A stretch of DNA of 64,000 nucleotides from an uncultured Acidobacteriaceae bacterium (GCA_963697035.1 CAVOMN010000004.1:27723-91722), one strand, 5' to 3'; counted from the first letter of the stretch, positions 35,350 to 55,312 are shown. The notes: generated from the letters alone by a model not told the origin. Made by a program: numbers and translations.

Positions 35350-35739
35350 TGGGTTTGACCCTATTCGGGATCGATTCTTTGCCCAAGTTTCTTGCCTTGT
35401 TCTTACCGTCCTACCCGATTCGCTGCTTACTTGATGTCGAGTTCTGTCAGCTACCTTCGTACATCTGACTGAGGAACCGAACCAGCAACCTCATCATCCC
35501 TGGAAAGCTGGGCGCATTGGTTCTGTCGAGCTTGGCCTTGGCGGTGGCGACGCAGTTCAACAAGTGGCGTTCCAGAAATTCAGTCCCAGCCCGCGCAAAG
35601 GAAACGGCAGTACTCTCTTCGGGTGTATGTTCACAGGTACGGCGCGGCTCAAATTAACGGCAGAAGCTCGATGATTCGAGGTGCATGCACTGGTCAACAT
35701 TGACCATCTTGCGGCCGAGCAAGATCGCATTATGTAGTT

Positions 35740-35880
35740 ATGAAAATCACCGAGAAGCAAGCATTAGCGGTTCGGTGCCCCACTTGTGGCGCCAAGCCGG
35801 GAGAAAAATGTGAGTTAAGCACCGGCCTGCCTCGTACCGAGCCCCATCGAGATCGACGCCTGGCAGCTTCGGATAGGTAA
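35740..35880 (+). CDS. 46-aa zinc-finger mini-protein (CPTCGAKPGEKC motif)
   Basis: Hand-translated ORF below the track cutoff: MKITEKQALAVRCPTCGAKPGEKCELSTGLPRTEPHRDRRLAASDR. Confidence 0.35.
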   Translation: MKITEKQALAVRCPTCGAKPGEKCELSTGLPRTEPHRDRRLAASDR

Positions 35881-36234: not shown

Positions 36235-36696
36235 TTAGCGCGTTCGCCCTCCCGTGATCGGACGCAGATCAACCTCTGGCCCCACTGCATCGTGCTTGGA
36301 CATCCGACGTGTCTCGGTGCTGTCCAGGTAGCAGCTCTGCTGGAGATGGCGAGAGTGTGCAGAAACGATGACGTAGGGCACGCCCAGAAAACGCTTGGCA
36401 ATAATCTCCGTCACCTCCAGGCCATTAAAATGCTGTTGCTTCACCTTGCCTAGGATTCGCCTCAATGCGTTCTCGATCTTCTTTGCTCTAACGCCGCCAA
36501 AGAACATCGCCTTTGCTTCAGTCGCCATGAAAAAGAAGTTCCATCCAGCGGCGCGGATCTTGCGATCGAGGGCAAAGCTATCTAGCACCTTAACCAGCCT
36601 CCTGGTACCCGAATGGGGCTCGCTTTCCAAGCCCGGGAATTGTGCCATCAGTGGCTGATCTTCGAGCAGGATGGCGCCAACTTGAATGCCTGACAT
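36235..36696 (-). CDS. hypothetical protein (153 aa)
   Basis: Intact ORF divergent from the first Crp/Fnr gene. No domain recognised. Confidence 0.55.
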   Translation of the reverse strand: MSGIQVGAILLEDQPLMAQFPGLESEPHSGTRRLVKVLDSFALDRKIRAAGWNFFFMATEAKAMFFGGVRAKKIENALRRILGKVKQQHFNGLEVTEIIAKRFLGVPYVIVSAHSRHLQQSCYLDSTETRRMSKHDAVGPEVDLRPITGGRTR

Positions 36697-37002: not shown

Positions 37003-37021
37003 CTGTGCAGAATGGCTCACT
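37003..37021. promoter_or_regulatory. quasi-palindromic motif copy 1: CTGTGCAGAATGGCTCACT
   Basis: 61 nt upstream of the Crp/Fnr paralog 1 ATG. Confidence 0.45.
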
Positions 37022-37081
37022 CTCGACGTGGAGACAAAATTTATGCGAATTGGGTGTCGTTTTTCCGGACTATACTTATCG

Positions 37082-37762
37082 ATGATGAGCCCTAGTGCGG
37101 CGGCAAAGAAAAACCGTGAGTTCGACCCCAAGAGCTTCCTGGCAACCATTGGTGCCGGGAGAAAGCTCTTGGCCGTCCCAGGGAAGCAAACGATATTCAC
37201 GCAAGGGGACGGGGCGGACGCGGTCTTCTATATCCAGAAAGGCAAAGTGAGGCTCACCGTCGTTTCCAAAATTGGCAAGGAAGCGACGATCGGCATGCTG
37301 AGTGAGGAGAATTTTTTTGGCGAAGGCGCGCTGGCTGGCCAGGTCCTTCGTATGGGATCCGCGGCTGCCATGACGGATTGCGAGCTGTTGCGGATCGAGA
37401 AGAAGGCCATGATGGAAGCTCTTCACCGCGAGCAGGCGCTTTCCGACATGTTCGTGGCATATTTGCTGGCCCGGAATATCCGCTACGAAGAAGACCTGGT
37501 GGACCAGCTCTTCAACTCCAGTGAGAAGAGACTGGCTCGCGTTCTTCTGTTGCTTGCACATTTTGGCAAAGAGGGTATTCCGGAAACCGTGGTTCCCAAA
37601 ATCAGCCAGGAGACCCTGGCCGAAATGGTTGGAACTACTCGTTCGCGAGTCAGTTTTTTCATGAACCGCTTCAGGAAGCTGGGATTCATTCACTATGCTG
37701 GAGGGGTAGAAGGCGGGTTACAGGTTCACAGTTCGCTGCTTAACGTCGTCCTAAACGATTGA
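37082..37762 (+). CDS. Crp/Fnr-family transcriptional regulator (paralog 1)
   Basis: cNMP-binding fold (IFTQGDGADAVFYIQKGKVRLTVVSKIGKEATIG..FFGEGALAG). C-terminal HTH (ISQETLAEMVGTTRSRVSFFMNRFRKLGFI). ATG at 37082 chosen by alignment with paralog 2. Confidence 0.9.
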   Translation: MMSPSAAAKKNREFDPKSFLATIGAGRKLLAVPGKQTIFTQGDGADAVFYIQKGKVRLTVVSKIGKEATIGMLSEENFFGEGALAGQVLRMGSAAAMTDCELLRIEKKAMMEALHREQALSDMFVAYLLARNIRYEEDLVDQLFNSSEKRLARVLLLLAHFGKEGIPETVVPKISQETLAEMVGTTRSRVSFFMNRFRKLGFIHYAGGVEGGLQVHSSLLNVVLND

Positions 37763-37885
37763 GCGCCCACGAAAAGCGCCTGAACTCCTGGACCCATCTC
37801 TTTAATTCAACCATTCAACTAAGGGACAGCTACGGAAGGGCGGAAGCAGCAACCTCGCGTTGCGGCCTTGCCGGACCTAAGACTG

Positions 37886-38200
37886 CTACTCGGTTGCGCC
37901 GGTACTCTTGGGCGGGTCGGCTCGCCAAACGTACAAGTATTTCTCGTCGCTCGACGTTTCCACCGGAATGTTTCTCTCTCGCGTTACACGGTTCAAAGCG
38001 GAACGAAGATTCTGCATCTTCTCGCCGTTCAGACCGCTCAACGGAATCTTGACCGCTTGCCGCGAGTCCAGCTTGGAAAGGTCGCCGAGAATGTCCGCCA
38101 CTGCCTTCCGATGTTTTCCTTTACGACCTTGCGGAACATCGGAGCGATTCACCGACGCATAGTGCGTGTCGTTTCCGTTACTGTTTCTGTTGGGTGTCAC
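37886..38200 (-). CDS. hypothetical protein (104 aa)
   Basis: ORF lying between two Crp/Fnr paralogs. No recognisable domain. Confidence 0.45.
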   Translation of the reverse strand: MTPNRNSNGNDTHYASVNRSDVPQGRKGKHRKAVADILGDLSKLDSRQAVKIPLSGLNGEKMQNLRSALNRVTRERNIPVETSSDEKYLYVWRADPPKSTGATE

Positions 38201-38421
38201 GGAGGGCTCCGTTTTTCAGTATCGTACCCGTACGCGCGAAATCCTACCGCAAAGAATCGTAACCCGCAACTAAAAATCTATACGAAACCTTAGTGAAGGC
38301 GGCGATCTGTCACACACGAATACGTTAAGTTTAACTTTATCAATAAGATACACAACCAACGTTTCGTTAAAACTTGCTTAAGAGTTCACCCGAATCGGAG
38401 GGATAAAGGTAATCTTGAATC

Positions 38422-39099
38422 ATGGCGCCCGGCTTGACTGCAAAAACGAAACTAAAGAAGAATCCCGAGTTCGATCCCACCACTTTCTTGGCGACGATTG
38501 GCGCCGGCCGGAAGTTTGTGCCTGCTCCGGCAAAGCAAGCGATATACACGCAGGGGGACGCGGCGGACGCTATCTTTTATATCCAAAAAGGTAAAGTGAG
38601 GCTCACCGTCGTCTCCAAAATTGGTAAGGAAGCCACCATCGGCGTATTGAGTGAAGAGAATTTCTTTGGAGAGGGCGCGCTGGCTGGTCAAATTCTGCGT
38701 ATGGGATCCGCGGCTGCAATGACGGATTGCGAACTGCTGCGGATCGACAAAAAGGCCATGATGCATGCACTTCACCGCGAACATGCATTTTCCGATCTGT
38801 TTGTTGCATATTTGCTGGCGCGGAATATCCGCTACGAAGAGGACCTGGTGGACCACCTGTTTAATTCCAGCGAAAAGAGACTGGCCCGGGTCCTTCTATT
38901 ACTCGCTCATTTTGGCAAGGAGGGCGTTCCGGAAACTGTAGTCCCCAAAATCAGCCAGGAGACGCTGGCCGAGATGGTGGGAACCACCCGTTCGCGAGTC
39001 AGCTTTTTCATGAACAGATTCAGAAAATTAGGATTCATTCACTACAACGGCGGTCTTCAGGTCCACAGTTCGCTGCTCAACATCGTTTTACACGACTAG
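38422..39099 (+). CDS. Crp/Fnr-family transcriptional regulator (paralog 2)
   Basis: 225-aa ORF, near-identical to paralog 1 across the cNMP and HTH regions. Confidence 0.9.
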   Translation: MAPGLTAKTKLKKNPEFDPTTFLATIGAGRKFVPAPAKQAIYTQGDAADAIFYIQKGKVRLTVVSKIGKEATIGVLSEENFFGEGALAGQILRMGSAAAMTDCELLRIDKKAMMHALHREHAFSDLFVAYLLARNIRYEEDLVDHLFNSSEKRLARVLLLLAHFGKEGVPETVVPKISQETLAEMVGTTRSRVSFFMNRFRKLGFIHYNGGLQVHSSLLNIVLHD

Positions 39100-39187
39100 A
39101 ATTTCTCGCCAAACTCACCTCACTCGAATATCCCGAAAATCAAGACCGCCCGAGGGATCCTTTGCGAATTCCCGTGGTACCAGCCAT

Positions 39188-39206
39188 GTTGAGCAATTTT
39201 GTACAG
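39188..39206. promoter_or_regulatory. motif copy 2 (reverse complement CTGTACAAAATTGCTCAAC)
   Basis: 53 nt upstream of the LuxR-type regulator ATG. Confidence 0.4.
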
Positions 39207-39258
39207 ACACATCTTAAGGGCCCTTGCTAAGTTTGTCCCTCAGTTGTGAGGAGGCTCT

Positions 39259-39984
39259 ATGAGTGCATTTCGCATTTTGCTGGCTGACGATCATCCAATA
39301 TTCCGTTTCGGTCTGTGCTCGCTGCTTGGGGCGCACGAAGGGTGGGAGGTCTGCGGAGAGGCTGCTGATGGACGGGATACGGTAGAAAAATGCAGGCGTT
39401 TGAAACCAGATCTTCTTATGTTGGACATTTGCATGCCCGGACTAAATGGCCTGGACACGGCACGGAAAATCCTGGCCGACAATCCGGCTCAGAGAATACT
39501 GGTCATCTCCGATCTGGAATCGGAGCAGGTAGTCCGGGATTGTTTGGAAGCGGGGATTCGCGGCTGGGTCTTTAAGTCCGACGGGACCGATGAACTGATA
39601 ACAGCAGTGGGGGCAATGCAATGGCACAAGTCCTTTTTCAGCTCGCGAGTGTCCGAGCTGATCATGGACGGTTACCTGCAGGGGCATCGCATTAATCCAG
39701 TCGCAGGCAAGGTCCCTCAACTGACCCCTCGGGAGCGCGAGGTCGTACAACTCGTAAGTGAGGGCAAGACTTCCAAGGAAGTCGCCCTGATCCTGAATGT
39801 GACGGTGAAAACGGCAGAAACACATCGAAGCAACATCATGTTTAAGCTGAAGCTACATTCGATCGCAGAGTTGGTGCTGTATGCGGTGAGGAACCAGATC
39901 GTCAACGTGCAACTCCCCACCGTACTGCGCTTTCCCAACCCGGAGAACGGCCGAGCCGATGCCGCCTCTCAGGGCCTTGACTGA
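39259..39984 (+). CDS. NarL/FixJ (LuxR-type) response regulator
   Basis: Receiver motifs ILLADDHP and DLLMLDICMPGLNG. LuxR HTH LTPREREVVQLVSEGKTSKEVALILNVTVKTAETHRSNIMFKL. Confidence 0.9.
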   Translation: MSAFRILLADDHPIFRFGLCSLLGAHEGWEVCGEAADGRDTVEKCRRLKPDLLMLDICMPGLNGLDTARKILADNPAQRILVISDLESEQVVRDCLEAGIRGWVFKSDGTDELITAVGAMQWHKSFFSSRVSELIMDGYLQGHRINPVAGKVPQLTPREREVVQLVSEGKTSKEVALILNVTVKTAETHRSNIMFKLKLHSIAELVLYAVRNQIVNVQLPTVLRFPNPENGRADAASQGLD

Positions 39985-40076
39985 GGGTTTGCTTTTCTCG
40001 ATCGGGACGACAAGAGATTTTTATTGAGCCGGTGGTCGGCCTTCGGGCGATCACGGCCTAGGCGGAGAAACTCTTT

Positions 40077-40406
40077 GTGAAAATGTTACTCTTTGCAGGC
40101 CTGCTCCTAGTCGCACTCGGCATCGCATCGCTGATCGTACCGATCCCGCACAGCGAGACGCAGGGCATCAAAATAGGAGACACGAATATAGGCGTGCAGA
40201 CCAGTCACAGTGAACGTGTATCGCCTATCCTCAGCGCGGTGGTGATCGCGGGTGGGATCGCGCGGCCATTGCAGGCGTGCGTGGCCGGGGGTCGAAAAGC
40301 TGAGGCTCCTCTCCACCTCATGCTGAATGCGCTTGAGCAGCTCTTTTCGGGCTTTCCGTCCCGATCGAACATCCATCTCTCAATGTCGGACAGTGGTCAA
40401 TTGTGA
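40077..40406 (+). CDS. small membrane protein, probably carrying a +1 frameshift (native end about 40306)
   Basis: MKMLLFAGLLLVALGIASLIVPIP.. then a second hydrophobic segment. After AGGIA the +2 frame reads AAIAGVRGRGSKS-stop, which looks like the native C-terminus. Confidence 0.45.
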   Translation: MKMLLFAGLLLVALGIASLIVPIPHSETQGIKIGDTNIGVQTSHSERVSPILSAVVIAGGIARPLQACVAGGRKAEAPLHLMLNALEQLFSGFPSRSNIHLSMSDSGQL

Positions 40407-40443
40407 CCAGAGAATTCCGCCATTCTTATGGTAACAACATCCC

Positions 40444-40647
40444 ATGGCTAAGAGGCAGTGCCTGGAATGCGGTGGTGAGCTGGTCATGGCATTCCGTCCC
40501 AGCGAAAGTGGACGGCTCAACCCTGGTGCGGGCACTTTGTCAATCGCAAACTCAAAATGGAGATGCAGCACCTGCGGACATAGCTTTAATGCGCGGCAGC
40601 TTCGAGCCGATAAGCGAGCGGTCAAGAAAACGGTGGAGCAAGCGTAA
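40444..40647 (+). CDS. zinc-ribbon mini-protein (67 aa)
   Basis: CLECGG .. CSTCGH Cys pairs in a basic protein. Confidence 0.5.
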   Translation: MAKRQCLECGGELVMAFRPSESGRLNPGAGTLSIANSKWRCSTCGHSFNARQLRADKRAVKKTVEQA

Positions 40648-40726
40648 TCAACAACGAGAGTTCGTTCTGGTCGCCCTCTCTGCAAAATAAGCAGCCTGAT
40701 AAGTCGATCAAAGGAGAATCGTTAAT

Positions 40727-40897
40727 ATGGAGACCGTAACAGAAGAAAAACGCGGAATGAAGACAGAGATAAGAGATGCATCCTCGGAGTATTCCAAGCC
40801 CTTCACCGATAAGTTTTCGGAAAAAAGAATGGCCAACAAACAGAGAAGAAAGAGAGCGCACAAACGTAAGCTGAGCCGGTCCAATACGAACGGTTAA
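40727..40897 (+). CDS. 56-aa basic mini-protein
   Basis: Hand-translated: METVTEEKRGMKTEIRDASSEYSKPFTDKFSEKRMANKQRRKRAHKRKLSRSNTNG. AAGGAG SD about 10 nt upstream. Confidence 0.4.
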   Translation: METVTEEKRGMKTEIRDASSEYSKPFTDKFSEKRMANKQRRKRAHKRKLSRSNTNG

Positions 40898-41002
40898 GGG
40901 CAGCTCTTTGTCCTTGCATGCCTCCAAGAATTAACCAAGGCAGTTCCATCGCCTCTGGAGGCAGCTCTACCAGGGAATCAATGTTAGCAACAATGGTTAC
41001 GC

Positions 41003-41021
41003 CGTGAGCAAATTTGAACAG
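41003..41021. promoter_or_regulatory. motif copy 3 (reverse complement CTGTTCAAATTTGCTCACG)
   Basis: 50 nt upstream of the receiver-only regulator ATG. Confidence 0.4.
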
Positions 41022-41070
41022 CTTTGGTCGCGTGATATCGCTGATTTCTTGATGTGGGGAGGTCAAATTT

Positions 41071-41478
41071 ATGTCCAATCACACAACCCCCAAGATAATT
41101 CTGTGCATTGACGATGATGACGGCATGCTGGGGTACCAACGAGCCCTGCTCGAAAGATGTGGATTTGCAGTGCTTACCGCCGCCTCAGCTCGGCAAGGGG
41201 TAATAATTGCGTCAGCCTCCGGGGTTGCCGCCGTCATCGTGGACTACCACATGCCTGATATGAATGGGCATGAGGTCGCGACCGAAATAAAGCGCCTCAG
41301 ACCGCAAATTCCGATAGTCATGGTCTCCAGTGACGACGATATACCTGAACACGAATTAAGGATGGTCGATGCCTTCGTTTCCAAGAGCGAGGCGTCCAGG
41401 CGCTTGTTGCCGGTCATCACTCGGATGTGCAGTGCAGACCCCTCCGCGTTCTCAGAAAGCACCAGGATCGCAGGCTGA
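41071..41478 (+). CDS. stand-alone response-regulator receiver (CheY-like)
   Basis: Motifs ILCIDDDD, AVIVDYHMPDMNG and PIVMVS. Confidence 0.85.
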   Translation: MSNHTTPKIILCIDDDDGMLGYQRALLERCGFAVLTAASARQGVIIASASGVAAVIVDYHMPDMNGHEVATEIKRLRPQIPIVMVSSDDDIPEHELRMVDAFVSKSEASRRLLPVITRMCSADPSAFSESTRIAG

Positions 41479-41595
41479 GTTATACGCGAGGCTTTCCCCA
41501 GGAGCGTACGCGCCTACTGGTTATCACGCGCCCAGCCGGAAACGCCGGCACGTCTACAAATCGCCCAAAGTATCATTGGTCTCTATCTCTTTTGC

Positions 41596-41820
41596 TTATC
41601 CCTGCCTCGCGTCTTTCCGTCCGAGCTGAGATCCTTTGAGCGACTTCCCACACTCCAAACAAAATCGTTTCGAACGTGGCGTGATTAAACCACAAAACGG
41701 GCACATCCTTTGTGATGCGAAGTCTCGGCTATTCACGCCTAAACCCTTCCTCAGCAATCCGGTGATAAAGGCGGACGCGGTATGAACGCGTACCAGCAAC
41801 TTGCGCACGACTGATTCCAT
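41596..41820 (-). CDS. zinc-ribbon mini-protein (74 aa)
   Basis: CPFCG .. CLECG Cys pairs. Confidence 0.45.
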   Translation of the reverse strand: MESVVRKLLVRVHTASAFITGLLRKGLGVNSRDFASQRMCPFCGLITPRSKRFCLECGKSLKGSQLGRKDARQG

Positions 41821-41928
41821 GTCTGAACTTCCAATTTCCCTGGCCGCTCGAATCGGTGCTCAATGGCGTAAGATCACCAGATCAGCTCAAAGCCAAGGGC
41901 TAGGGTGACACATCAAACGCCAGCGATT

Positions 41929-41947
41929 CTGTGCAGGATTGCTCACA
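41929..41947. promoter_or_regulatory. motif copy 4: CTGTGCAGGATTGCTCACA
   Basis: Lies in the divergent intergenic region between the 74-aa zinc-ribbon gene and the SYLF gene. Confidence 0.45.
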
Positions 41948-42162
41948 TTGCCCTCAGTTTTCAGGTATCTCAGCAAACAGACAACTCTTCCCTCATGCGA
42001 CGGTAAAACGCGAGTGAGCAATTCAGACCAGCTATTCTTTCGAGCCTGAGTCATCATACCGTTTGAGATGAGCTCTTCCTCTCTCTTTCAGGTCCTCTGA
42101 ACTAAGTCAGCCCATCTGAAGTTTTCTTCTCTTAGTTTCTACAGCTCCGAAAGGACCAAAAT

Positions 42163-42879
42163 ATGAAAAAGACGATTTCGCTATTTGTGATGAGCTTTGT
42201 AGCCTTAGCTGGAACCTACGCGTTGGCAGGCTCGGCTCGGGAAGACACGGTGGCACGCCTGCAATCGTCCGTGGAGGTTCTGCACGCGATTATGGCAACG
42301 CCGGACAAAGGGATTCCGGAAGAAGTACTGAGCGATGCCAAATGCATCCTGGTGGTGCCAGATTTGATCAAGGGTGGCTTCATCCTTGGTGGCAAGCACG
42401 GACGTGGTGTGGCTACTTGCCGCACGGCCGCGGGCTGGAGTGCACCGGCGTTCGTTTCGGTTGGTGGTGGAAGTGCGGGATTCCAGATCGGGGTCGAAGG
42501 CGTGGACTTGGTCATGCTGGTGATGAACGATCAGGGATTTCAGCATCTGCTCTCCAGCAAATTCGAGCTCACTGGTGAAGGATCGGTTGCGGCGGGCCCG
42601 GTTGGCCGTCACGCGTCCGCGGGGACCGACTGGAAGATGAACACTGAAGTGCTGACCTACTCGCGCTCCAAGGGCGTGTTTGCTGGCGTTACCCTCGAAG
42701 GCGCAGTGGTGGAGCAGGACGACGACTCCACTCGCGCTATTTACGGCAAGCCTATGATGTTCCGCAGTATTCTTTCCGGCAAAGTGTCAACCCCGAGAAG
42801 TGCGGACGCATTCATGAAGGCCGTTTCAGATGCAGGTCAACAGGCGCGGATCGCAGACGCCACAGAAGACAAAAAGTAA
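42163..42879 (+). CDS. SYLF (DUF500/Ysc84-like) lipid-binding domain lipoprotein/secreted protein
   Basis: Signal peptide MKKTISLFVMSFVALAGTYALAG. SYLF pattern KCILVVPDLIKGGFILGGKHGRGV..FQIGVEGVDLVMLVMN..VLTYSRSKGVFAGVTLEGA. Confidence 0.85.
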   Translation: MKKTISLFVMSFVALAGTYALAGSAREDTVARLQSSVEVLHAIMATPDKGIPEEVLSDAKCILVVPDLIKGGFILGGKHGRGVATCRTAAGWSAPAFVSVGGGSAGFQIGVEGVDLVMLVMNDQGFQHLLSSKFELTGEGSVAAGPVGRHASAGTDWKMNTEVLTYSRSKGVFAGVTLEGAVVEQDDDSTRAIYGKPMMFRSILSGKVSTPRSADAFMKAVSDAGQQARIADATEDKK

Positions 42880-42915
42880 TTGCATCTAAGCTCTGCCGGC
42901 GAATTGGACTTGTAA

Positions 42916-42950
42916 CTGACCGGAACCGCGTACCGGCTCCGGTCAGTTTC
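42916..42950 (+). terminator. putative intrinsic terminator after the SYLF gene
   Basis: CTGACCGGA-(13 nt)-TCCGGTCAG hairpin followed by TTTC. Confidence 0.5.
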
Positions 42951-43009
42951 CCAACCTAGAATGACGGATCCTCGTTTCCGGCGCTATTGATCCTCCGAAA
43001 GGCGGCACA

Positions 43010-43879
43010 ATGAAAGCCAATTTGCGCAGATATCGTTGGGTACAGGTGGTAGCCTGCCTCAGTTTTTCGTCTATGCTGGCACTTGGCCAGTCCGCTGGTT
43101 TCGCCCAGAATCTGGAGGCATGTAAGGCTGGCCGCGAAGCCTGCGACCGCTCCAAGTTGAGCCCCTCGCAATCGGCCGAAGTGGCTCTCGCCAGCCACGC
43201 ACGCAACGTTTCAAGCTGTAGGAACAGCTACGATTCCTGTGATCGATCCAAACTCACTCCGCCGGAAGCGGTTGCGTTGGCCGTGGCCGATCACAAACGC
43301 AATGTCTCCGATTGTAACGACGGCGTGTGGACCTGCGACCGCTCCAAGCTGACCCCGTCCGAAGCCCGCGATTCGTCCGTCGCAGAGCGGCAGCGGAACA
43401 TCGGCGACTGCAAGGACGGGGTTGGGTCCTGTGATCACTCCAAACTGACACCGTCGGAAGCCGGAGAAGTGGACGCGGCGAGGCGTCAACTCAACGTCTC
43501 CGACTGTAAGCGCGGCACGGGCCTCTGCGACCATTCCGCTCTAACCACTTTGGAAGCGAGCGAAGTGAGTGCTGCTGAACACCAGCGCAATGCGCAAAAT
43601 TGCGAGAATGGCTGGGACGAATGCGACCACTCCAAACTCACTCCGGCGGAAGCAGGTCAAAGCGCCTACCTGGATCATCAGCGGAACCTCTCTGCTTGTG
43701 GGGACGGCGAGGAAACCTGTGATTACTCAAGACTGAGTGCGGCCGAAGCCGGCCGGCTGATGGTCGCGGAGCAAGGCCGCAATTACGCGGCATGTCGCGC
43801 CGGATACGGGTATTGTGATCGCTCCCGTTTGACGCCGGCGGAAGTCCAGTCGATTGCCGCGGAGCCCAAACCCCGGTGA
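43010..43879 (+). CDS. secreted Cys-rich protein built from eight 32-aa repeats
   Basis: Signal peptide MKANLRRYRWVQVVACLSFSSMLALGQSAGFAQ, then repeats of CxxGxxxCD[RH]SKLTPxEAxxxxxAxxxRNxxx. Confidence 0.75.
   Translation: MKANLRRYRWVQVVACLSFSSMLALGQSAGFAQNLEACKAGREACDRSKLSPSQSAEVALASHARNVSSCRNSYDSCDRSKLTPPEAVALAVADHKRNVSDCNDGVWTCDRSKLTPSEARDSSVAERQRNIGDCKDGVGSCDHSKLTPSEAGEVDAARRQLNVSDCKRGTGLCDHSALTTLEASEVSAAEHQRNAQNCENGWDECDHSKLTPAEAGQSAYLDHQRNLSACGDGEETCDYSRLSAAEAGRLMVAEQGRNYAACRAGYGYCDRSRLTPAEVQSIAAEPKPR
43121..43876 (+). repeat. 7.9 tandem 96-nt coding repeats (2 Cys per unit)
   Basis: Period of exactly 32 aa, read from the translation. Confidence 0.8.
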
Positions 43880-43906
43880 ATGCACGGGAACAATAGGGCG
43901 CAGATA

Positions 43907-44125
43907 TCAGGATCCGAGCGGAGAGCGCTGTGCCATTCTATTGGGCGAACCTACCGGTCCAGTAGCACTCCCATTTCTTTGTCCTCGCCCCACACCTTGG
44001 CGTATTGCGCTTTCCCGATTGCTCCAGGGCCGTTTGGCCCCATCTCGTAATATTATCTTTGCGTCCGGGGAAAACTTTTTCAACGCCTCCATGAGATCCT
44101 TAACTGTCCATTCCTTATTTGCCAT
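43907..44125 (-). CDS. small hypothetical protein, probably frameshifted (native stop about 43951)
   Basis: MANKEWTVKDLMEALKKFSPDAKII.. After KII the +1 frame reads YEMGPNGPGAIGKAQYAKVWGEDKEMGVLLDR-stop, which looks far more protein-like than the listed tail. Confidence 0.4.
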   Translation of the reverse strand: MANKEWTVKDLMEALKKFSPDAKIILRDGAKRPWSNRESAIRQGVGRGQRNGSATGPVGSPNRMAQRSPLGS

Positions 44126-44134
44126 ATTTCCTCA

Positions 44135-45010
44135 TTACGCGGCTAAGTTAGGCTCCGTGCGCCGCGTCGTTTCAGGTACTAATCTCCCTTTAGCTTCTAG
44201 CAGGAGTTCCGCATTGAATTGAGCGCCGATCAAGATCACGAACCCGGTCCAATAAAGCCAAATGCTGAATGCGAGCGCGACCCCGAAGCTGCCATAACCC
44301 TTGCTGTACGCGGAGAAGTCCTGGAAATAGATTCCGAGCAGACAGGAAAGTCCGATCCAGCCGCCTACCGCGATTAGTGCGCCTGGCAGCGTGCTCACGA
44401 ATCTGTGCTTCACATTCGGCGCAACGAAGTAGAGGAGCTCAACCGCGAGAACTGTGCATGCAAGTGCGACTGACCATCGAACATAGGACCAGAGGCGGAC
44501 CATTCGCACGGTTGCGTTGAACGGCGCGCTCAGGTTAGGGCCGACAAGCATCAGTCCAAGGGCAACGATGAGCAGACATCCAACCGAGAAAGTAAGACTT
44601 ATGGCGAGACTACGCGTCTTCCAATAGGGCCTCGTCTCAGATACGTCATAGGCAGTGTTCAGCGCATCGATCAACGCCGTAAACCCGCTCGACGCTGACC
44701 ACAGGGTGAACAGAATTCCGAAGGTCAGCAGACGGCTGTGTCTGGACAAAATCGTGTCCGTTATTAGGTTCCTGAACGGGCCCATGGTGGCGGCGGGGAC
44801 AACCCGTGCGATCAGCCCCATGACCTGGCTAAAGAAGTCCGGAAATGGCAGATGGGCGACGAGCGCGGAGAGGAGGATTAGAAAAGGAAACAGGGCGAGG
44901 ACAAAGTAGTACGCCAATGCCGCGGCAAAAGCCATGGTGTGGTTCTTTTCCATGTCTCGAACCACGTTGACCGTTGCGTTCTTGAAGTGGAGTAAGCGCA
45001 AGGGGATCAT
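44135..45010 (-). CDS. YihY/BrkB-family membrane protein
   Basis: ORF 44135..45193. Likely start is MIPLRLLHFKNATVNVVRD..AFAAALAYYFVLALFPFLILL, with multiple TM segments. Confidence 0.8.
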   Translation of the reverse strand: MIPLRLLHFKNATVNVVRDMEKNHTMAFAAALAYYFVLALFPFLILLSALVAHLPFPDFFSQVMGLIARVVPAATMGPFRNLITDTILSRHSRLLTFGILFTLWSASSGFTALIDALNTAYDVSETRPYWKTRSLAISLTFSVGCLLIVALGLMLVGPNLSAPFNATVRMVRLWSYVRWSVALACTVLAVELLYFVAPNVKHRFVSTLPGALIAVGGWIGLSCLLGIYFQDFSAYSKGYGSFGVALAFSIWLYWTGFVILIGAQFNAELLLEAKGRLVPETTRRTEPNLAA

Positions 45011-45279
45011 TGTGCAGCGCTGCTCGCCGCGGGCGGAACCGTCTCCACGGACTTCAACTTGTCCAAGCCAGTCAGTGGGCCTTGCTAGGGAACCTGGTCC
45101 TTCTTCGTCTCGCTGTCTCCGAGAGGCCTGAATTAACTGCAGGATGCATTCGCACAGCTCCGGCGAGGTCCGAGCTAACTTCCGCTCTGACAACTAAGCC
45201 AGGAACTGCCTCCGGTTATGATGGCAAACCGCTGCCTCCTTACGTCACTTACGAGATTCTCTCAATTGCTCCTGGATTC

Positions 45280-45298
45280 CTGTGCAGAATTGCTCACT
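45280..45298. promoter_or_regulatory. motif copy 5: CTGTGCAGAATTGCTCACT
   Basis: Lies in the divergent intergenic region between the YihY gene and Crp/Fnr paralog 3, 92 nt upstream of the latter. Confidence 0.45.
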
Positions 45299-45389: not shown

Positions 45390-46151
45390 ATGTCTCCTAA
45401 TCGCCAAACCAACGGTACTCCCCCCAGAAGGAAAGTCGCCCGCCCAACCCTGATCGTCCCGGCATTCCAACCAGAGCGTAATGCCATAAGTCCAGGTGTA
45501 GTAGCCAAGAGAAGGCACGCTTTCGATCCCCATGAATTCCTCGCGACCATCGGCGAGGACAGGAAATCTGTGCTTTTCCAGAGGAAGCACGGAATCTTTG
45601 CACAAGGGGATACCGCGGATGCTGTGTTTTATATCCAGACGGGCAACGTGAAACTCACCGTGGTCTCGAAAACTGGCAAGGAAGCAACCATCGGCATACT
45701 AAGTGACGGAGATTTTTTCGGCGAAGGTTTGCTTGCGGGCCAAGCGCTCCGCATGCACTCGGCAACCGCAATGACGGATTGCGCTGTACTGCGAATCGAC
45801 AAGCTTGCCCTGATGGAAGCCCTTCATCGAGAACACGAATTTTCTGACCTATTCGTGGCCTATTTGTTGTCGCGGAACATCCGTTACGAAGAAGATCTGG
45901 TTGATCAGCTTTTCAATTCGAGCGAAAAGAGGCTGGCCCGTATCCTTTTACTGCTCGCTCATTTTGGCAAGGAAGGCAAACCGGAGAGTGTAGTTCCCAA
46001 GATCAGTCAGGAAGTCCTGGCGGAAATGATCGGCACAACCCGCTCGCGGGTCAGCTTCTTCATGAACCGGTTCAGGAAATTGGGATTTATTCAATACAAT
46101 GGCAAGTTGCAAGTCCATAGCTCGCTGCTTAACGTCGTTCTGCACGACTAG
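45390..46151 (+). CDS. Crp/Fnr-family transcriptional regulator (paralog 3)
   Basis: AAGGAGG SD 7 nt upstream. Same cNMP and HTH motifs as paralogs 1 and 2, with a longer N-terminal extension. Confidence 0.85.
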   Translation: MSPNRQTNGTPPRRKVARPTLIVPAFQPERNAISPGVVAKRRHAFDPHEFLATIGEDRKSVLFQRKHGIFAQGDTADAVFYIQTGNVKLTVVSKTGKEATIGILSDGDFFGEGLLAGQALRMHSATAMTDCAVLRIDKLALMEALHREHEFSDLFVAYLLSRNIRYEEDLVDQLFNSSEKRLARILLLLAHFGKEGKPESVVPKISQEVLAEMIGTTRSRVSFFMNRFRKLGFIQYNGKLQVHSSLLNVVLHD

Positions 46152-46488: not shown

Positions 46489-47824
46489 TCAATGTGCCGT
46501 ACCACCCGCAACCATCGGCGATGATGACGGCGCCGGCACCGCGGACTTCAACAAGTCCACGTTAGTCAACACCCTCTCCCACAGAACCTGGTCTTTTTTC
46601 GTCTCGATCGGCACCGAGAGGTCGGAATAGAACTGCAGAACGTTCTCACGCAGCTCCGGAGACATCCGATCGAACTTCCGCTCTGACAACTGAGCTAGTA
46701 ACCTCGCATAGGCATCGTCCGTCAGCGTGTACTCCGCTGCCTTAGTTGCGTGGCCGCTATCCAGATCGCAGTTGGGTAGCTTCAGCGTCTCAGTGCGCAC
46801 CTCTTCAAGAAACGCGCGGTATTGATCGACGGTCGTATTGATGCTCTTGATGTAGAGGTCTTCGGTTTGCGGAGTCGGGTTATTGAACGCCAGCTTCTTG
46901 AACGGACCGATTTTTGGCATGTACCGCAGCAGTGTTGACAAGATGCGAGTGCCCATGCCCGGCTTCACGTAATCCTTGCCCCATTGCTTTTCGTAGTCAG
47001 AGCGCGAAAGACGGTATAGAAATTTCCGTTTCGCGAAATTTGGGGTTTCGCGCATCAGGTCTTTCTTGTGAGTCTGCAGCGCGACTTCGGTCATCTGCGG
47101 AATCAGCCGGCTGACCGCGAAACGATACGAACCCACCGCCAGATCCTCGTGGGTAAGCACGTCCTTCAGTTCCACGCCATACACAACGGGAAAGACCCGC
47201 TCCAGCAGTGGTTTGGACACTTGAAATCCGATGAAATCGTGGTACTGCTGTGACGCATAACGATTCTTCGCGACCTGCACGGTGTCAAACCCGAACTCCG
47301 TTTTCAGGTGCGCCGTCTTGTCCTGGGCATAGCGGACTGACTTGCCCAAACTTCGCTCGCAGCTTGGGATACTCGATTGCGACGGCCTGGTTAACTGCGG
47401 GGTGCCCGGCGATGTCCGACGCATAGTGCGACAGCGCCCCCAGCGCGAAAGCGTACTCGTTAGCGTCCTGGCTTTCGAGCAGCAACTCGCGGACAAAGTC
47501 TCCGCTGCGGACGTAATGCACCAGGTCACTGAATTCCCTGCTGCCGAACGGGTAGTAGCCGAGATCCTGGATGACTGCGCCTCCGTAGGCATAGGCATGC
47601 GCCTCTCTGATCTGGTCTTCCGAAAGTCCCGGATAGCGTTTGAGCAGGAGCGGCTGGATCTCGTCGGTCCAGAGCAGGTCCACGATTTCCTCATGCGTCA
47701 GAACGGAGTAGGCGGACGAGCCGCCGCTGCACATCAGTGCGACGAGAAGAAGCGCTGCCGCACGGACAGAAAGCGGGCGCCAACCTTTGCCCATGGCGCC
47801 TGGCGATGTCAATGGCTGGCGCAT
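46489..47824 (-). pseudogene. zinc-dependent phospholipase C-like secreted protein, one frameshift near 47.3 kb
   Basis: N-terminal 47285..47824 (signal peptide, YSVLTHEEIVDLLW, HYASDIAGHPAVN). Body in the frame of 46489..47694. Family call is tentative. Confidence 0.55.
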
Positions 47825-48841: not shown

Positions 48842-48881
48842 AAGTGTTACCTCCATTACTGACTGGTTACTTGTGCTTGCT

Positions 48882-50530
48882 TTACCGCAAGCTTCCTGTG
48901 GTCGCGTTGACCGGGTTGCCGATGGCTTCGCCGGATACCAGAAGTTCCACTCTGCCGGTTCTGCTGCCGGCCGGCGGAGTTATCGTTGGAGGCTACCGGC
49001 AAAGTGTTGCCGAAGCCTTTTGCGCTGACTGAATTGGTCGCCACGCCTTGTTGCACCAGGTAATCGCGCACCGATCCGGCGCGGTTCTCAGACAGCGTTT
49101 GATTCATTGCATCGCCGCCGACATTATCGGTGTAGCCGCCGACTTCAATGTTGAGTCCAGGGTAGGCGAGCAGAATGCCGGCGACTTTCGCCAGCTTCTC
49201 CCGCGCACCCGGCTTCAACGAATATTTTCCGGTGTCAAACAAAACATCGGACATGCTGACGATGAGCCCGCGCGCGCTGTCGCGAGTCTGGAGAATGGAA
49301 TTCAACTGCTCGGACAATCGCGTGCGCATGGCCGCTTTGTCGGTTTCCGCCTGTTGCGCGTTCTGCTGCGCTTGCTGCGCAGCTAAACGAGATTGTTCGG
49401 CATCGGCCTGGGCTGCGGCAGTGCGGTGGCTGATGCAGCCTGGCTGTCTGCCATATCGGATTTGGCCTGTCGGAGTCCGACTGTGCTGGCAGTTCGGCCT
49501 GGCCTCACGTGCAGCTTCGCCTGGGCTTTGCGCTTGCGCTGGCTGTGTCCGACTCGCCTGAGCTTGCGCTTCGGCACGGGCTTGGTCAGACTGGGCTTGC
49601 TCTTTCTGCCGGGTGGCGTCATCGGCTTGCGCCTGCGATTGTGCCTGCGCGTCGGCGGAAGCCTGGCGTTCGTTGGCCAGGCGCACCTCGTCCATCTTCT
49701 TGACCGCGATGGCGCGCGCATCTTCGGCAGTCTGCACTGCCTCGCGGGCGACTGCGATCAGCGGCTTTCTGTCGATGTGTTTTCTGGTGGCATATTCATC
49801 GGCATTGTTCATCAACTGGACAGCATGCTGATAGCTGTCGCTGGCATATTGCTCGGCTCCCTCGGATTGCGCGATGCGCAGCGCATTGCGCGCTTCGAAG
49901 AATTCCAACGGCAACTTGGCATTCAGAACCACCGGGTCGAACTTGTAGCCGGTGGGAATGTAGCCGCCGCGCTCCATAGTTCGTACTTTGCATTCACCGC
50001 CTCGGTCGTTCCCTTGGTGTCGTCGCGAACCACGTTCTCAATCACCACCACGTTGCTGGGCTGCCGCACGGCATAATAAGGTTCCGCGGTAACGATCAGA
50101 GCGAAAGCCTGAAGGTCGGTGGTGACGTCCAGCTTGCTGCGATGGTTGTCGCCCACCAGCACTTCGCCCAGGTTCACGGCCCGGCCTTCGGGCGAAATCG
50201 CCCACAGGATGTAGGTCAGATACTCATTGCCGAAAGTCGTGGGTTTTTGCAGATTGCCAAATTCCACTTCGATCTCGATGGAGCCCTTCTTGCTTTCTAC
50301 TTTGGCTTGGCCGTTCGCTGAGGGCATCAGATCGGTGCCCGCGAAATCCAGCTTGGTGGCTCCGCTGCGATGCTTGTAGTTGACGGCCTGCACGCTGCGG
50401 CTGACTACGTTCACCCGGAAGGTCGGCGTCGGGCCATGGGCTCGACGACCATGGTTGTTTGGGAATTGGTTTGAGCAAATGCGCTCAAACTGAGGGCGAT
50501 TCCGACTGCTAACAAAAGCTTTGTTTTCAC
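48882..50530 (-). pseudogene. OmpA-family protein (N-terminal beta domain, Gln/Ala coiled-coil linker, OmpA_C), at least 3 frameshifts
   Basis: GTG start with AAGGAG SD and signal peptide VKTKLLLAVGIALSLSAFAQ. Body in the frames of 49923..50816 and 48856..49977 ([51 protein letters not shown]). The [14 protein letters not shown] motif is split by a 1-nt shift near 48.94 kb. Confidence 0.65.
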
Positions 50531-50623
50531 AAGTATCTCCTTGTGGCAGATGTCTGCCGTGTTGCGTTGTATCGATCTTGTGATTGCTGATCCGCTGCTT
50601 GCTGGTATCCTGCTCGTCATCCT

Positions 50624-50816
50624 TTACGTTCCGACGTGGATATCTGGAAAGGGAATGAAACAGCCCAAAAACATTCAGGAGCCACAGAACCACGGCAATG
50701 ACCACGACGCCATTCAAAATTGACTTGATGGATCCCTGCATGGGAATGAAGCGATTCACCAGCCACAGCAGAACACCCACCACGATCAGAACTTCCAGGA
50801 GTTGAATTAAAGGCAT
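50624..50816 (-). pseudogene. small two-TM membrane protein, probable 1-nt frameshift near its 3' end
   Basis: MPLIQLLEVLIVVGVLLWLVNRFIPMQGSIKSILNGVVVIAVVLWLLNVFGLF.. The adjacent frame gives IPFPDIHVGT-stop at 50624. The listed 297-aa ORF is a read-through fusion with the OmpA gene. Confidence 0.45.
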
Positions 50817-51179
50817 GATCTTTACCTTCCTTGTTTCGCGGGCTAACGCCTCTCATCCGCCTGGAGGTGTTGCCCTAATTTCGATGTTCGAGACTTTTAG
50901 GGTCGAATCGTGTCTCGCCGGAGGTTTCGCGGCGTACACACGGATGAAGAATGCCGATTGGCTGGATGTGGCCGCTTGCGATCTCGATCCTGGATCTCAC
51001 CGCAGCGACCTAGGAATGAGAGCTGCGAATCAGCGGTCGCAGCTCCGTCTACACACTCAGGAGAATCAAGAATGACAGGTGCGGACTTTCGTGTCTGAGC
51101 AAGATAGCTCACATGTGCAGAATCAGGATGGATGTCCACCGGATCGAATCGCGAAGCCGTTCAGCGTGCTTGTGCGGAT

Positions 51180-54806: not shown

Positions 54807-55312
54807 CAGTTTTCTGGTTTGCGCCTAGCTAGTTTGGAGAGGTTGATTTCCATAATGAACGCCCGCTCTTCAGTGGTGAATCGAGAACGGGCAATGACAT
54901 TTCATTTCACTCGCTTTTGGGTTCGTGCTATCCGGAACGCAGTCTCCCGTTTCTAAGTCTCGGCTAGACCGGCGAGGAAGGCTGATCAAAATTGATCAGA
55001 TTACAATGTCAAAATGCAGTTGGAGAAATCTCCTGACCGACGGCAATGGTGACGTGCCCTCGAAAAACTCAGCCAGCTAGAATTGGGGACCTCACGTCGC
55101 GGCGGTAGCGATGAAGGAGGGCTGCGGCCATGAAGAGAGGGCGCTTCAGCGATTCAGGGTCAGGACAGAATGCTGCAAATCAGCCCACTCTTCCCTCCGG
55201 CGCATACATCGGACTATGCCTAATGACCCGGCGTCAGAATTTCCAGAGTGCACGTCGCCTGCCGGGGCGCGAAAGTAAGGTCGTCATTCGCGTTCTTTCC
55301 CGTCGGCGACGC

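What the first reader, a model, noticed from the sequence alone, without database searches (positions are those of the whole stretch)
37003..45298. Five copies of an 18-19 nt quasi-palindrome (CTGTGCA-N4-TGCTCAC) in promoter regions of the Crp/Fnr-rich region
The five copies read directly from the sequence are:
- CTGTGCAGAATGGCTCACT (37003)
- CTGTGCAGAATTGCTCACT (45280)
- CTGTGCAGGATTGCTCACA (41929)
- reverse complement CTGTACAAAATTGCTCAAC (39188)
- reverse complement CTGTTCAAATTTGCTCACG (41003)

All five are intergenic. They lie 50-92 nt upstream of two of the three Crp/Fnr paralogs and of both response regulators, and in the divergent SYLF / zinc-ribbon promoter region.

The half-sites (TGTGCA / TGCTCA, ideal form TGTGCA-N4-TGCACA) form an imperfect inverted repeat, the geometry expected for a Crp/Fnr dimer. 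The motif differs from the FNR (TTGAT-N4-ATCAA) and CRP (TGTGA-N6-TCACA) consensus sites.

Inference: this is a local auto- and cross-regulated regulon of the paralogous regulators.
Basis: partly seen in the sequence, partly recalled or inferred. Interest (0 to 1): 0.65.

Follow-up and report, generated by a model that had tools for sequence, protein, structure and literature searches.

The report
Activator sites of acidobacterial Crp regulators
The repeated 18-base sequence is a real, widely conserved binding site, most likely for an unstudied branch of Crp-type regulators in soil Acidobacteria, and it sits at a fixed distance upstream of at least nine promoters in this region.

Summary
The five copies are at the stated coordinates and are far more than chance gives: 6 matches with up to 2 mismatches against 0.48 expected.

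I found at least four more sites in the window. The same motif occurs in 80 related Terriglobia genomes, at the same place and orientation before orthologous genes.

The general form is TGNNCA-N4-TGNNCA. In this lineage the strong half is GTGAGCAA, not TGTGCA.

The element is directional. Exactly 20-21 nt after its weaker half lies a conserved -10 box (nAWnnT). This puts the site centre near -41.5, the class II activator position. The -10 and the start sites are predicted, not mapped.

Targets include two response regulators, a SYLF protein, three small zinc-finger proteins and a BrkB membrane protein.

The copies "upstream of crp1 and crp3" are placed for the divergent promoters, not for the crp genes, so autoregulation is not shown here.

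The three Crp paralogs, which share one recognition helix (TTRSRVS), are the most likely binders. A relative subfamily only about 55% identical carries the same dyad in its own promoters. Binding itself is untested.

Side finding: a nearly invariant 5' leader is shared by the SYLF, Hsp20 and other genes.

The parts
35690..35707 (+). Site CTGGTCAACATTGACCAT, followed by -10 CATTAT (35728-35733). It drives a leaderless 46-aa zinc-finger ORF (ATG 35740, to 35880).
   Evidence: Dyad scan; gap of 20 nt to the -10; Pfam Phage_zn_bind_8.
37003..37020 (-). Site read on the minus strand as GTGAGCCATTCTGCACAG, with -10 CAATCT at 36982-36977. This divergent promoter points towards the 153-aa ORF (36235-36696). 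It lies 61 nt before the crp1 ATG, at -71.5 from the crp1 -10.
   Evidence: Orthologues keep GAWTCT at a gap of 20 nt.
39189..39206 (+). Site TTGAGCAATTTTGTACAG with -10 TAAGTT (39228-39233). Promoter of the receiver+GerE response regulator (39259-39984).
   Evidence: Six orthologous promoters have the same layout.
40393..40410 (+). Site GTGGTCAATTGTGACCAG with -10 TAACAA (40432-40437). It drives a leaderless 67-aa zinc-ribbon ORF (40444-40647).
   Evidence: weak zinc-ribbon Pfam hits, below the curated cut-offs.
41004..41021 (+). Site GTGAGCAAATTTGAACAG. Promoter of the receiver-only response regulator (41071-41478). The -10 is weak in the window (TGATTT/GATTTC).
   Evidence: 24 orthologous promoters carry the site in this orientation.
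41929..41946 (-). Site read on the minus strand as GTGAGCAATCCTGCACAG, with -10 CACCCT (41907-41902). Promoter of the 74-aa zinc-ribbon ORF (41596-41820).
   Evidence: 31 orthologues have gTCATCGT at the same gap.
42014..42031 (+). Site GTGAGCAATTCAGACCAG with -10 CATCAT (42052-42057) and a predicted start near 42064. Promoter of the SYLF/Ysc84 gene (42163-42879).
   Evidence: 30 orthologues have the site centre 136-160 nt (28 of them 136-146) before the ATG. In 3 of 4 runs, RNA contigs cover nothing upstream of 42059.
42064..42162 (+). 5' leader of SYLF. It contains the nearly invariant core CTCTTTCAGGTCCTCTGAACTAAGTCAGCCCATCTGAAG...CTCTTAG.
45280..45297 (-). Site read on the minus strand as GTGAGCAATTCTGCACAG, with -10 GAATCT (45259-45254). 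This divergent promoter points towards the BrkB/YihY gene (44135 to about 45011). It lies 92 nt before the crp3 ATG.
51095..51112 (-). Site read on the minus strand as GTGAGCTATCTTGCTCAG, with -10 CATTCT (51074-51069). A long conserved leader runs towards the 297-aa membrane ORF (49923-50816) and the OmpA-domain gene (48856-49977).
   Evidence: 13 orthologues are nearly identical.
54982..54999 (.). Perfect palindrome CTGATCAAAATTGATCAG in an intergenic spacer. It is only a candidate site, with no convincing -10 on either side.
37082..37762 (+). crp1: cNMP_binding + HTH_Crp_2. Its own -10, TATACT (37071-37076), lies 5 nt before the ATG, so the mRNA is predicted to be leaderless.
38422..39099 (+). 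crp2: paralog 87% identical to crp1, with no site upstream.
45390..46151 (+). crp3: paralog 76% identical to crp1, with a longer N-terminus (253 aa against 226).
37032..37049 (+). Weak copy of a second conserved element found only in crp promoters. The orthologue consensus is TGKCACGATTTRTGMCA, centred near -40 of the crp -10.

Best explanation
The 18-mer is the operator of a promoter module used by a regulon of Terriglobia (Acidobacteriota).

Layout: a 16-bp dyad TGNNCA-N4-TGNNCA, here aaaGTGAGCAAttnTGnnCAG, is followed after 20-21 nt by a -10 box nAWnnT. There is no usable -35 box. The dyad centre therefore falls near -41.5, the position from which Crp/Fnr-type dimers activate RNA polymerase directly (class II activation).

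Binder: the most likely binder is the group of three paralogous Crp-family proteins encoded among the sites. All three carry the same recognition helix, TTRSRVSFFMNRF. They keep the Arg that in CRP reads the outer TG. They lack the Glu that in CRP reads the next G:C, which fits the free inner dinucleotide of the half-site.

Targets in the window: two response regulators, a SYLF lipoprotein, three small zinc-finger proteins, a BrkB-type membrane protein, a 153-aa ORF and a membrane/OmpA operon.

What is shown: the motif, its spacing, its conservation, its one-sided link to a -10 box, and its association with this Crp subfamily.

What is inferred: which protein binds, that it activates rather than represses, the transcription start sites, and the signal sensed.
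For: 1. Non-random in the window: 6 matches against 0.48 expected, and 9 against 1.03 expected.

2. Conserved in relatives. There are 244 PWM hits of at least 16 bits in 953 kb from 80 related genomes. They are 8.5 times denser outside ORFs than inside. They keep a fixed orientation and distance before orthologous genes.

3. The dyad is spacer-specific. TGNNCA-Nx-TGNNCA in non-coding DNA gives 178 hits at N4 against 3-7 at N2, N3, N5 and N6.

4. The -10 signal is one-sided. After the ...CAG end, position +22 is A in 77% of sites and +26 is T in 73%. Nothing comparable lies on the other side. All nine window sites have a -10-like hexamer at a gap of 20-21 nt, weak at 41004 and 40393.

5. Link to the Crp subfamily:
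- The recognition helix is invariant in about 85 homologues.
- The site lies within 300 nt of the crp gene in 46 loci.
- In 80 loci of a subfamily about 55% identical to crp1 (helix RSRVNFFMNKF), the same N4 dyad is again enriched: 29 against 1-4 in non-coding DNA, and 14 against 0-1 just upstream of the crp homologue.
- In one group of that subfamily the dyad sits in the crp gene's own leaderless promoter at about -42.5.
- GerE-type regulators are nearly absent from those loci.
- Half-site preference shifts with the helix variant: TGT-N-CA makes up 91% against 31%.

6. Alignment to M. tuberculosis CRP gives R-S-R-V-S against R-E-T-V-N.
Against: - No binding or expression data exist for any member. 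No RNA run from this organism was found.
- Start sites are predicted only from conserved -10 boxes.
- In this lineage the crp genes' own promoters mostly lack a properly placed site. They carry a different element instead.
- The GerE-type response regulator has a class II site in its own promoter. From memory, the TraR tra box (ATGTGCAGATCTGCACAT) fits the same dyad pattern.
- The loci were chosen by the presence of a crp homologue, so co-location is partly built in.
- The helix/half-site correlation rests on two lineages only.
Confidence: 0.62

Rival explanations
1. The dyad is bound by the NarL/LuxR-type response regulator (39259-39984), not by the Crp paralogs. The Crp genes would merely be neighbours or targets.
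For: - The regulator has a GerE helix-turn-helix domain.
- Its own promoter carries the site at about -42 in the window and in six orthologues, the usual pattern of positive autoregulation.
- From memory, GerE-family dimers bind 16-20-bp palindromes, and the TraR tra box fits TGNNCA-N4-TGNNCA.
- In most genomes the crp promoters of this lineage lack a well-placed site.
Against: - A homologue lies within 6 kb in only 9 of 80 loci, although sites occur in nearly all of them.
- In the distant Crp subfamily the dyad sits in the crp promoter, and there is no close GerE regulator nearby: 4 weak hits at about 33% identity.
- Genome-wide presence could not be checked.
Confidence: 0.15
2. The copies before crp1 and crp3 autoregulate those genes, for example by class I activation from -71.5, so that the paralogs form an auto- and cross-regulated loop.
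For: - In the window both sites lie 50 nt before the predicted crp -10 boxes, giving -71.5, a position allowed for CRP class I activation (sequence).
- In three orthologues the site is at -41 of the crp -10.
- A distant subfamily is clearly self-controlled.
Against: - Across 40 orthologues the distance ranges from -41 to -104.
- Phasing is not robust: Rayleigh p is about 0.003 on all values but 0.5 on unique values.
- The conserved -10 lies on the other side of the site.
- crp2 has no site.
Confidence: 0.3
3. The element is a promoter for an alternative sigma factor, or a site for an unidentified regulator encoded elsewhere, and not a Crp-type operator.
For: The orientation relative to the -10 box is fixed and no -35 box is present. 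No binding data exist.
Against: - Two-fold symmetry with strict N4 spacing points to a dimer.
- The distance from the conserved half to the -10 box (about 30 nt) fits no known sigma.
- The sigma-54 spacing is off by 2 nt (direct reading).
- The motif follows the Crp subfamily across about 55% sequence identity.
Confidence: 0.08
4. The copies are chance matches or remnants of a dispersed repeat.
For: None beyond the short length of the motif.
Against: Shuffle controls, unrelated flanks, and conservation of position in 80 genomes.
Confidence: 0.01

Closest known systems
FNR/CRP class II activator sites (E. coli FNR TTGAT-N4-ATCAA, CRP TGTGA-N6-TCACA, both centred at -41.5)
   Same: - The regulator has a cNMP-binding-like sensor domain plus a Crp-type helix-turn-helix.
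- The core is a 16-bp two-fold symmetric site.
- The inferred centre is near -41.5, at promoters without a -35 box.
- The flanks are A/T-rich.
   Different: - The half-site is TGNNCA with a free inner dinucleotide.
- The recognition helix reads R-S-R-V-S instead of R-E-T-V-G: CRP Glu181 and Arg185 are replaced.
- There is no FNR-type N-terminal cysteine cluster.
- The R-[ST]-A cAMP-contact motif is interrupted (RMGSA).
- The ligand is unknown.
Cmr (Rv1675c) and CooA sites, TGTCA-N6-TGACA (PMC4705688)
   Same: A Crp-family regulator binding a 16-bp palindrome that begins with TG and ends with CA.
   Different: The conserved CA lies one base further in (TG-NN-CA against TG-T-CA). The second element found here in crp promoters, TG(T/G)CA-N7-TG(A/C)CA, resembles the Cmr half-site more closely, but it has an odd spacer.
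TraR tra box ATGTGCAGATCTGCACAT (LuxR family; recalled from memory, not checked here)
   Same: It fits TGNNCA-N4-TGNNCA and is used from about -42 in class II-type promoters.
   Different: TraR has an acyl-homoserine-lactone binding domain. The GerE protein here is a phospho-receiver response regulator, and it does not travel with the motif.

Membership tests
Crp/Fnr-family operator and regulon | A regulator with a cNMP-binding-type sensor domain and an HTH_Crp_2 domain is encoded with the sites | tested here: met
   Three paralogs match PF00027 + PF13545. Their helix-turn-helix regions are identical.
Crp/Fnr-family operator and regulon | A two-fold symmetric site with fixed half-site spacing (14-16-bp core) | tested here: met
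   N4-specific enrichment: 178 against 3-7, 29 against 1-4, and 9 against 1.03 expected in the window.
Crp/Fnr-family operator and regulon | The site is centred at -41.5 (class II), or at about -61.5, -71.5 and so on (class I), from the transcription start | tested here: inconclusive
   A conserved -10-like hexamer at a gap of 20-21 nt implies -41.5 to -42.5. No mapped start sites exist. RNA contigs are only compatible with the prediction.
Crp/Fnr-family operator and regulon | The regulator physically binds the site | not testable with these tools
   This needs EMSA, DAP-seq or ChIP.
Crp/Fnr-family operator and regulon | The motif travels with the regulator family across genomes | tested here: met
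   The site lies next to crp in 46 of 80 close loci and upstream of a subfamily about 55% identical. The half-site shifts with the helix variant. Absence from genomes without the family was not tested.
E. coli-type CRP site | TGTGA-N6-TCACA consensus and the R180/E181/R185 recognition residues | tested here: not met
   The consensus differs. E181 is replaced by Ser and R185 by Phe, from the alignment to M. tuberculosis CRP.
FNR site | TTGAT-N4-ATCAA consensus and an N-terminal Cys cluster for the [4Fe-4S] centre | tested here: not met
   The consensus differs. There are no N-terminal cysteines in crp1-3.
LuxR/TraR-type box | A GerE-type regulator consistently encoded with the motif | tested here: not met
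   Present in the window, but in only 9 of 80 close loci, with only 4 weak hits in 80 distant loci. Whole genomes were not examined.
Sigma-54 promoter | GG and GC elements exactly 10 nt apart (TGGCAC-N5-TTGC) | tested here: not met
   Direct reading: there is no GG, and the spacing is 2 nt short. The orientation is also opposite to that required at several genes.

The most novel reading that the evidence does not exclude
A very large, uncharacterised Crp subfamily, defined by the TTRSRV recognition helix (1241 clusters at 50% identity with E below 1e-30), is a master activator of a stress or dormancy-type regulon in soil Acidobacteria. It would act through -35-less, often leaderless, class II promoters with a new recognition code (TGNNCA-N4-TGNNCA). 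One of its targets, SYLF, carries a nearly invariant 5' leader also found on Hsp20 and other small stress genes. That leader is among the most abundant acidobacterial sequences laid on this locus from four soil metatranscriptomes, and it matches no Rfam family.
Probability: 0.35. Interest if true: 0.65.

Novelty: new variant of a known kind. Interest (0 to 1): 0.5.

Why it matters
Terriglobia are among the most abundant soil bacteria, yet almost nothing is known about how they control transcription.

This analysis gives a testable promoter architecture: a dyad at -41.5, a -10 box nAWnnT, and frequent leaderless mRNAs. It also gives a candidate recognition code for a Crp subfamily with thousands of members.

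It provides a first regulon list: response regulators, SYLF, zinc-finger miniproteins and BrkB. Related genes are expressed in soil metatranscriptomes: contigs matched the crp genes, the SYLF gene and its leader, and the start of the response-regulator gene.

It also corrects which genes the sites next to crp1 and crp3 are likely to control.

Tried and rejected
- **Sigma-54 reading.** The spacing is 2 nt short and there is no GG.
- **Proximal half TTGnnC as a -35 box.** The spacer to the -10 would be 22 nt, too long.
- **Helical phasing between the site and the crp -10.** Rayleigh p is about 0.003 on all 40 values, is similar for periods of 10, 10.5 and 11, and is 0.5 on unique values. Not robust.
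- **Second crp-promoter element as a degenerate copy of the main motif.** It has about 6 mismatches in 13 conserved positions and a different spacing, so I kept it separate.
- **Mapping start sites with public RNA.** No RNA run from this organism was found. Only assembled contigs of related soil bacteria are available, and they show expression but not 5' ends.
- **Rfam search for the conserved leader.** No meaningful hit.
- **Covariation in the leader.** None, because it is invariant.
- **Folding energy of the leader.** No better than shuffles, z = 0.1-0.6.
- **Regulon list from the first downstream ORF.** Too noisy to use beyond the large clusters.
- **Literature searches.** Nothing found on an acidobacterial Crp motif or on the leader.
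- **tRNA or integration-site idea for the start of the region.** No tRNA in the window.
Full report
**1.

The five 18-19-mers are at the stated coordinates. Their flanks are unrelated, so they are not pieces of one duplicated segment.

Gene calls around them were confirmed with Pfam:
- Three cNMP_binding+HTH_Crp_2 proteins: crp1 37082-37762, crp2 38422-39099, crp3 45390-46151.
- A receiver+GerE response regulator, 39259-39984.
- A receiver-only protein, 41071-41478.
- An Ysc84/SYLF protein, 42163-42879.
- A 74-aa zinc-ribbon ORF, 41596-41820 on the minus strand.
- A BrkB/YihY membrane protein, 44135-45193 on the minus strand.

The pattern is well above chance. With up to 2 mismatches it occurs 6 times against 0.48 expected, and no shuffle of 100 reached 6.

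**2. There are more sites and the motif is looser than proposed**

A weight matrix built from the five sites also finds 42013(-) and 51095(+). The generic dyad TGNNCA-N4-TGNNCA occurs 9 times in the window against 1.03 expected. This adds 35691, 40394 and a perfect palindrome at 54983.

**3. The motif is conserved in relatives**

A scan of species-representative genomes with the three paralogs found 552 relatives. The best 80 loci are labelled Terriglobia or Acidobacteriota MAGs (one carries a Gammaproteobacteria label), at 79-88% identity.

- In their 953 kb the matrix finds 244 hits of at least 16 bits. In 100 simulated 64-kb sequences the best score averaged 14.4 bits.
- Hits are 8.5 times denser outside long ORFs: 0.86 against 0.10 per kb.
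- An unbiased comparison of 8-mers in non-coding against coding DNA recovers the motif words ATTGCTCA, GTGAGCAA and TGGTCAAT.
- The decisive control is spacing. In non-coding DNA, TGNNCA-Nx-TGNNCA occurs 178 times at x=4 and only 3-7 times at x=2, 3, 5 or 6.
- Half-sites are TGGTCA, TGAGCA, TGTTCA, TGTGCA and TGATCA. Hybrid sites occur, such as GTGAGCAATTCAGACCAG before SYLF. This suggests that one protein reads all of these half-sites.

**4. The element is directional and belongs to a promoter module**

Hits keep a fixed orientation and distance before orthologous genes (alignments).

I aligned all 244 hits on the motif and looked at the flanks, which the matrix does not cover. The signal is one-sided. 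After the ...CAG end, position +22 is A in 77% of hits, +23 is T or A, and +26 is T in 73%. Upstream of the GTGAGCAA half there is only an A-rich stretch.

This is a -10 hexamer, nAWnnT, at a gap of 20 nt. If the hexamer spans -12 to -7, the dyad centre is at -41.5.

All nine window sites have such a hexamer at a gap of 20-21 nt, though it is weak at 41004 and 40393:

| Site | Hexamer |
|---|---|
| 35690 | CATTAT |
| 37003 | CAATCT |
| 39189 | TAAGTT |
| 40393 | TAACAA |
| 41004 | TGATTT |
| 41929 | CACCCT |
| 42014 | CATCAT |
| 45280 | GAATCT |
| 51095 | CATTCT |

No -35 box fits. The proximal TTGnnC would leave a 22-nt spacer.

Several targets are predicted to be leaderless. For the zinc-finger ORFs at 35740 and 40444, the ATG lies 6 nt after the -10.

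Public RNA data offer only assembled contigs from related soil bacteria. They show that SYLF and its leader, the crp genes and the 104-aa ORF at 37886-38200 are expressed. In three of four runs nothing covers the DNA upstream of 42059, next to the predicted SYLF start at about 42064. This agrees with the model but does not prove it.

**5. Consequence for the copies "upstream of crp1 and crp3"**

Their orientation places the conserved -10 on the minus strand. At 37003 the promoter points to the 153-aa ORF; in many relatives it first passes a 43-aa membrane peptide. At 45280 it points to BrkB.

The crp genes have their own conserved promoter, GGACTAnAAT, 5-8 nt before the ATG. They are therefore predicted to be leaderless.

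The distance from the dyad to that -10 varies from 19 to 83 nt among 40 orthologues. That corresponds to centres from -41 to -104. In the window the distance is 50 nt, or -71.5, for both crp1 and crp3. Helical phasing is not robust.

Between the dyad and the crp -10 most orthologues carry a second palindrome, TGKCACGATTTRTGMCA, centred near -40. Apart from chance matches at the 3' ends of crp genes, it occurs almost only in crp promoters. Its binder is unknown. crp2 has no site.

Direct autoregulation of crp1 and crp3 is thus possible, but it is not what the conserved geometry points to.

**6. Which protein binds?**

The three paralogs have identical helix-turn-helix regions. The helix GTTRSRVSFFMNRF is invariant in about 85 homologues from the 80 loci.

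Aligned to M. tuberculosis CRP, R-E-T-V-N becomes R-S-R-V-S. By established knowledge of CRP-DNA contacts:
- Arg180 reads the G of the outer TG. It is kept here, and TG is invariant.
- Glu181 reads the next G:C. It is replaced by Ser here, and the corresponding bases are free.

This mapping is inference.

I tested the link with more distant relatives.
- An exhaustive search shows the helix GTTRSRV[SN]xFMN[KR]F persisting down to about 45-50% identity. There are 1241 clusters with E below 1e-30.
- I fetched 80 metagenome loci for a subfamily about 55% identical to crp1, with helix RSRVNFFMNKF. The N4 dyad is again enriched there: 29 against 1-4 in non-coding DNA, and 14 against 0-1 within 200 nt around the crp start.
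- In one group of that subfamily the dyad lies in the crp gene's own leaderless promoter: CTGTGCAAAATTGAACAG, then 22 nt, TATTCT, 5 nt and the ATG, giving a centre of about -42.5.
- GerE-type regulators are almost absent from those loci.
- Half-sites there are 91% TGT-N-CA, against 31% in the close set. This shift goes with the Ser-to-Asn and Arg-to-Lys changes in the helix.

Together this favours the Crp subfamily over the GerE response regulator. The response regulator remains a real rival for two reasons. It has a class II site in its own promoter. And, as I recall, the TraR tra box fits the same dyad pattern.

**7. What the regulon looks like**

Targets in the window:
- Two response regulators.
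- SYLF/Ysc84.
- Three small zinc-finger or zinc-ribbon proteins, at 35740, 40444 and 41820.
- BrkB/YihY.
- A 153-aa ORF.
- A membrane protein plus OmpA-domain operon.

No histidine kinase lies nearby. The sensed signal is unknown. The sensor domains lack FNR cysteines, and the R-[ST]-A cAMP-contact motif is interrupted (from sequence).

**8. Comparison with known systems**

In working principle this is a Crp/Fnr class II activator regulon. It is not a CRP or FNR site, because the consensus and the recognition residues both differ.

The nearest published 16-bp relatives are the Cmr and CooA sites, TGTCA-N6-TGACA (PMC4705688). There the CA lies one base further out.

I found no paper on an acidobacterial Crp motif in the held library.

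**9. Side finding**

The SYLF transcript starts with a leader of about 75-100 nt. Its core, CTCTTTCAGGTCCTCTGAACTAAGTCAGCCCATCTGAAG...CTCTTAG, is nearly invariant, with 25 invariant columns in 35 sequences.

It occurs 51 times in the 80 loci plus the window, in the two core-bearing forms. It always lies in the same orientation just before a gene. Those genes include Hsp20, a DUF2934 protein, a DUF4440 protein, a 106-aa and a 67-aa ORF. These other genes have ordinary TTGACA-17-TAnnAT promoters.

Its words are the most enriched non-coding 8-mers in the loci. In four soil metatranscriptomes the core reaches contig depths of about 57 to 2,500, against roughly 1-500 over the SYLF coding region. 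This is partly because the core recruits contigs from many species.

It has no Rfam match. RNAalifold predicts an 8-bp stem enclosing a 4-bp stem, but there is no covariation because nothing varies. Folding energies are no better than shuffles.

I cannot say whether it acts as RNA (a thermosensor, or a binding site for a protein or sRNA) or as a DNA operator. The constant orientation favours RNA.

Noticed in passing
window 42064-42162; 51 copies in L003-L079 and the window (e.g. L032:3494-3613, L034:5430-5549, L062:6907-7026): A nearly invariant 5' leader, with core CTCTTTCAGGTCCTCTGAACTAAGTCAGCCCATCTGAAG...CTCTTAG, starts at the predicted +1. It is shared by SYLF, Hsp20, DUF2934, DUF4440 and two unknown small genes that have different promoter types. 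It is very abundant in soil metatranscriptome contigs. It has no Rfam hit, no covariation and no unusual folding energy.
   Followed up: partly
window 37032-37049; crp promoters in L017, L020, L027, L030, L034, L035, L073 and others: A second palindrome, TGKCACGATTTRTGMCA (TGTCA/TGGCA-N7-TGACA/TGCCA), is centred about 40 nt before the crp start and is found almost only in crp promoters. Its half-site resembles Cmr/CooA sites but the spacer is odd. The binder is unknown.
   Followed up: partly
window 37071-37084 and 35728-35742, 40432-40446; crp promoters of L001-L080: A conserved GGACTAnAAT lies 5-8 nt before the crp ATG, and -10 boxes lie 6 nt before two zinc-finger ORFs. These mRNAs are predicted to be leaderless, a trait little documented in Acidobacteriota.
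   Followed up: partly
window 45030-45200 versus 46530-46700: The first ~60 codons of the 352-aa BrkB ORF are a diverged duplicate of the 3' end of the 401-aa gene at 46489-47694 (LSERK..SPEL..). The real BrkB start is probably the ATG at 45011. The remnant would then form part of a leader of about 236 nt.
   Followed up: partly
window 51062 down to 50816 (minus strand); L013, L016, L021, L024, L030, L033, L034, L036, L051: A leader of about 240 nt downstream of the 51095 promoter is strongly conserved (..CTCCTGAGTGTGTMGAGAGAGC..GCTCTCATTCTTAGGTCGCTG..). It may be structured or may encode a small RNA. No Rfam hit.
   Followed up: no
window 37886-38200 (minus strand): A 104-aa ORF with no Pfam match lies between crp1 and crp2. 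Related contigs reach depths of about 100-400 in one soil metatranscriptome (up to about 60 in a second, none in two others), the highest in the 2.7 kb laid.
   Followed up: no
window 43010-43879: A 289-aa secreted-looking protein is made of about nine tandem ~27-residue repeats, each with two cysteines (C-D-R/H-S-K-L-T-P-S/A-E-A ... N-x-x-x-C). No Pfam family.
   Followed up: no
window 54982-54999: A perfect 18-bp palindrome, CTGATCAAAATTGATCAG, lies in the spacer between a glycosyltransferase-like ORF and an unknown ORF. It fits the dyad but has no -10 box at the usual gap on either side.
   Followed up: partly
window 35740-35880, 40444-40647, 41596-41820: Three different miniproteins with zinc-finger or zinc-ribbon motifs (46, 67 and 74 aa) are all predicted targets. 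The 46-aa one matches a putative DNA-binding phage zinc-finger domain.
   Followed up: partly
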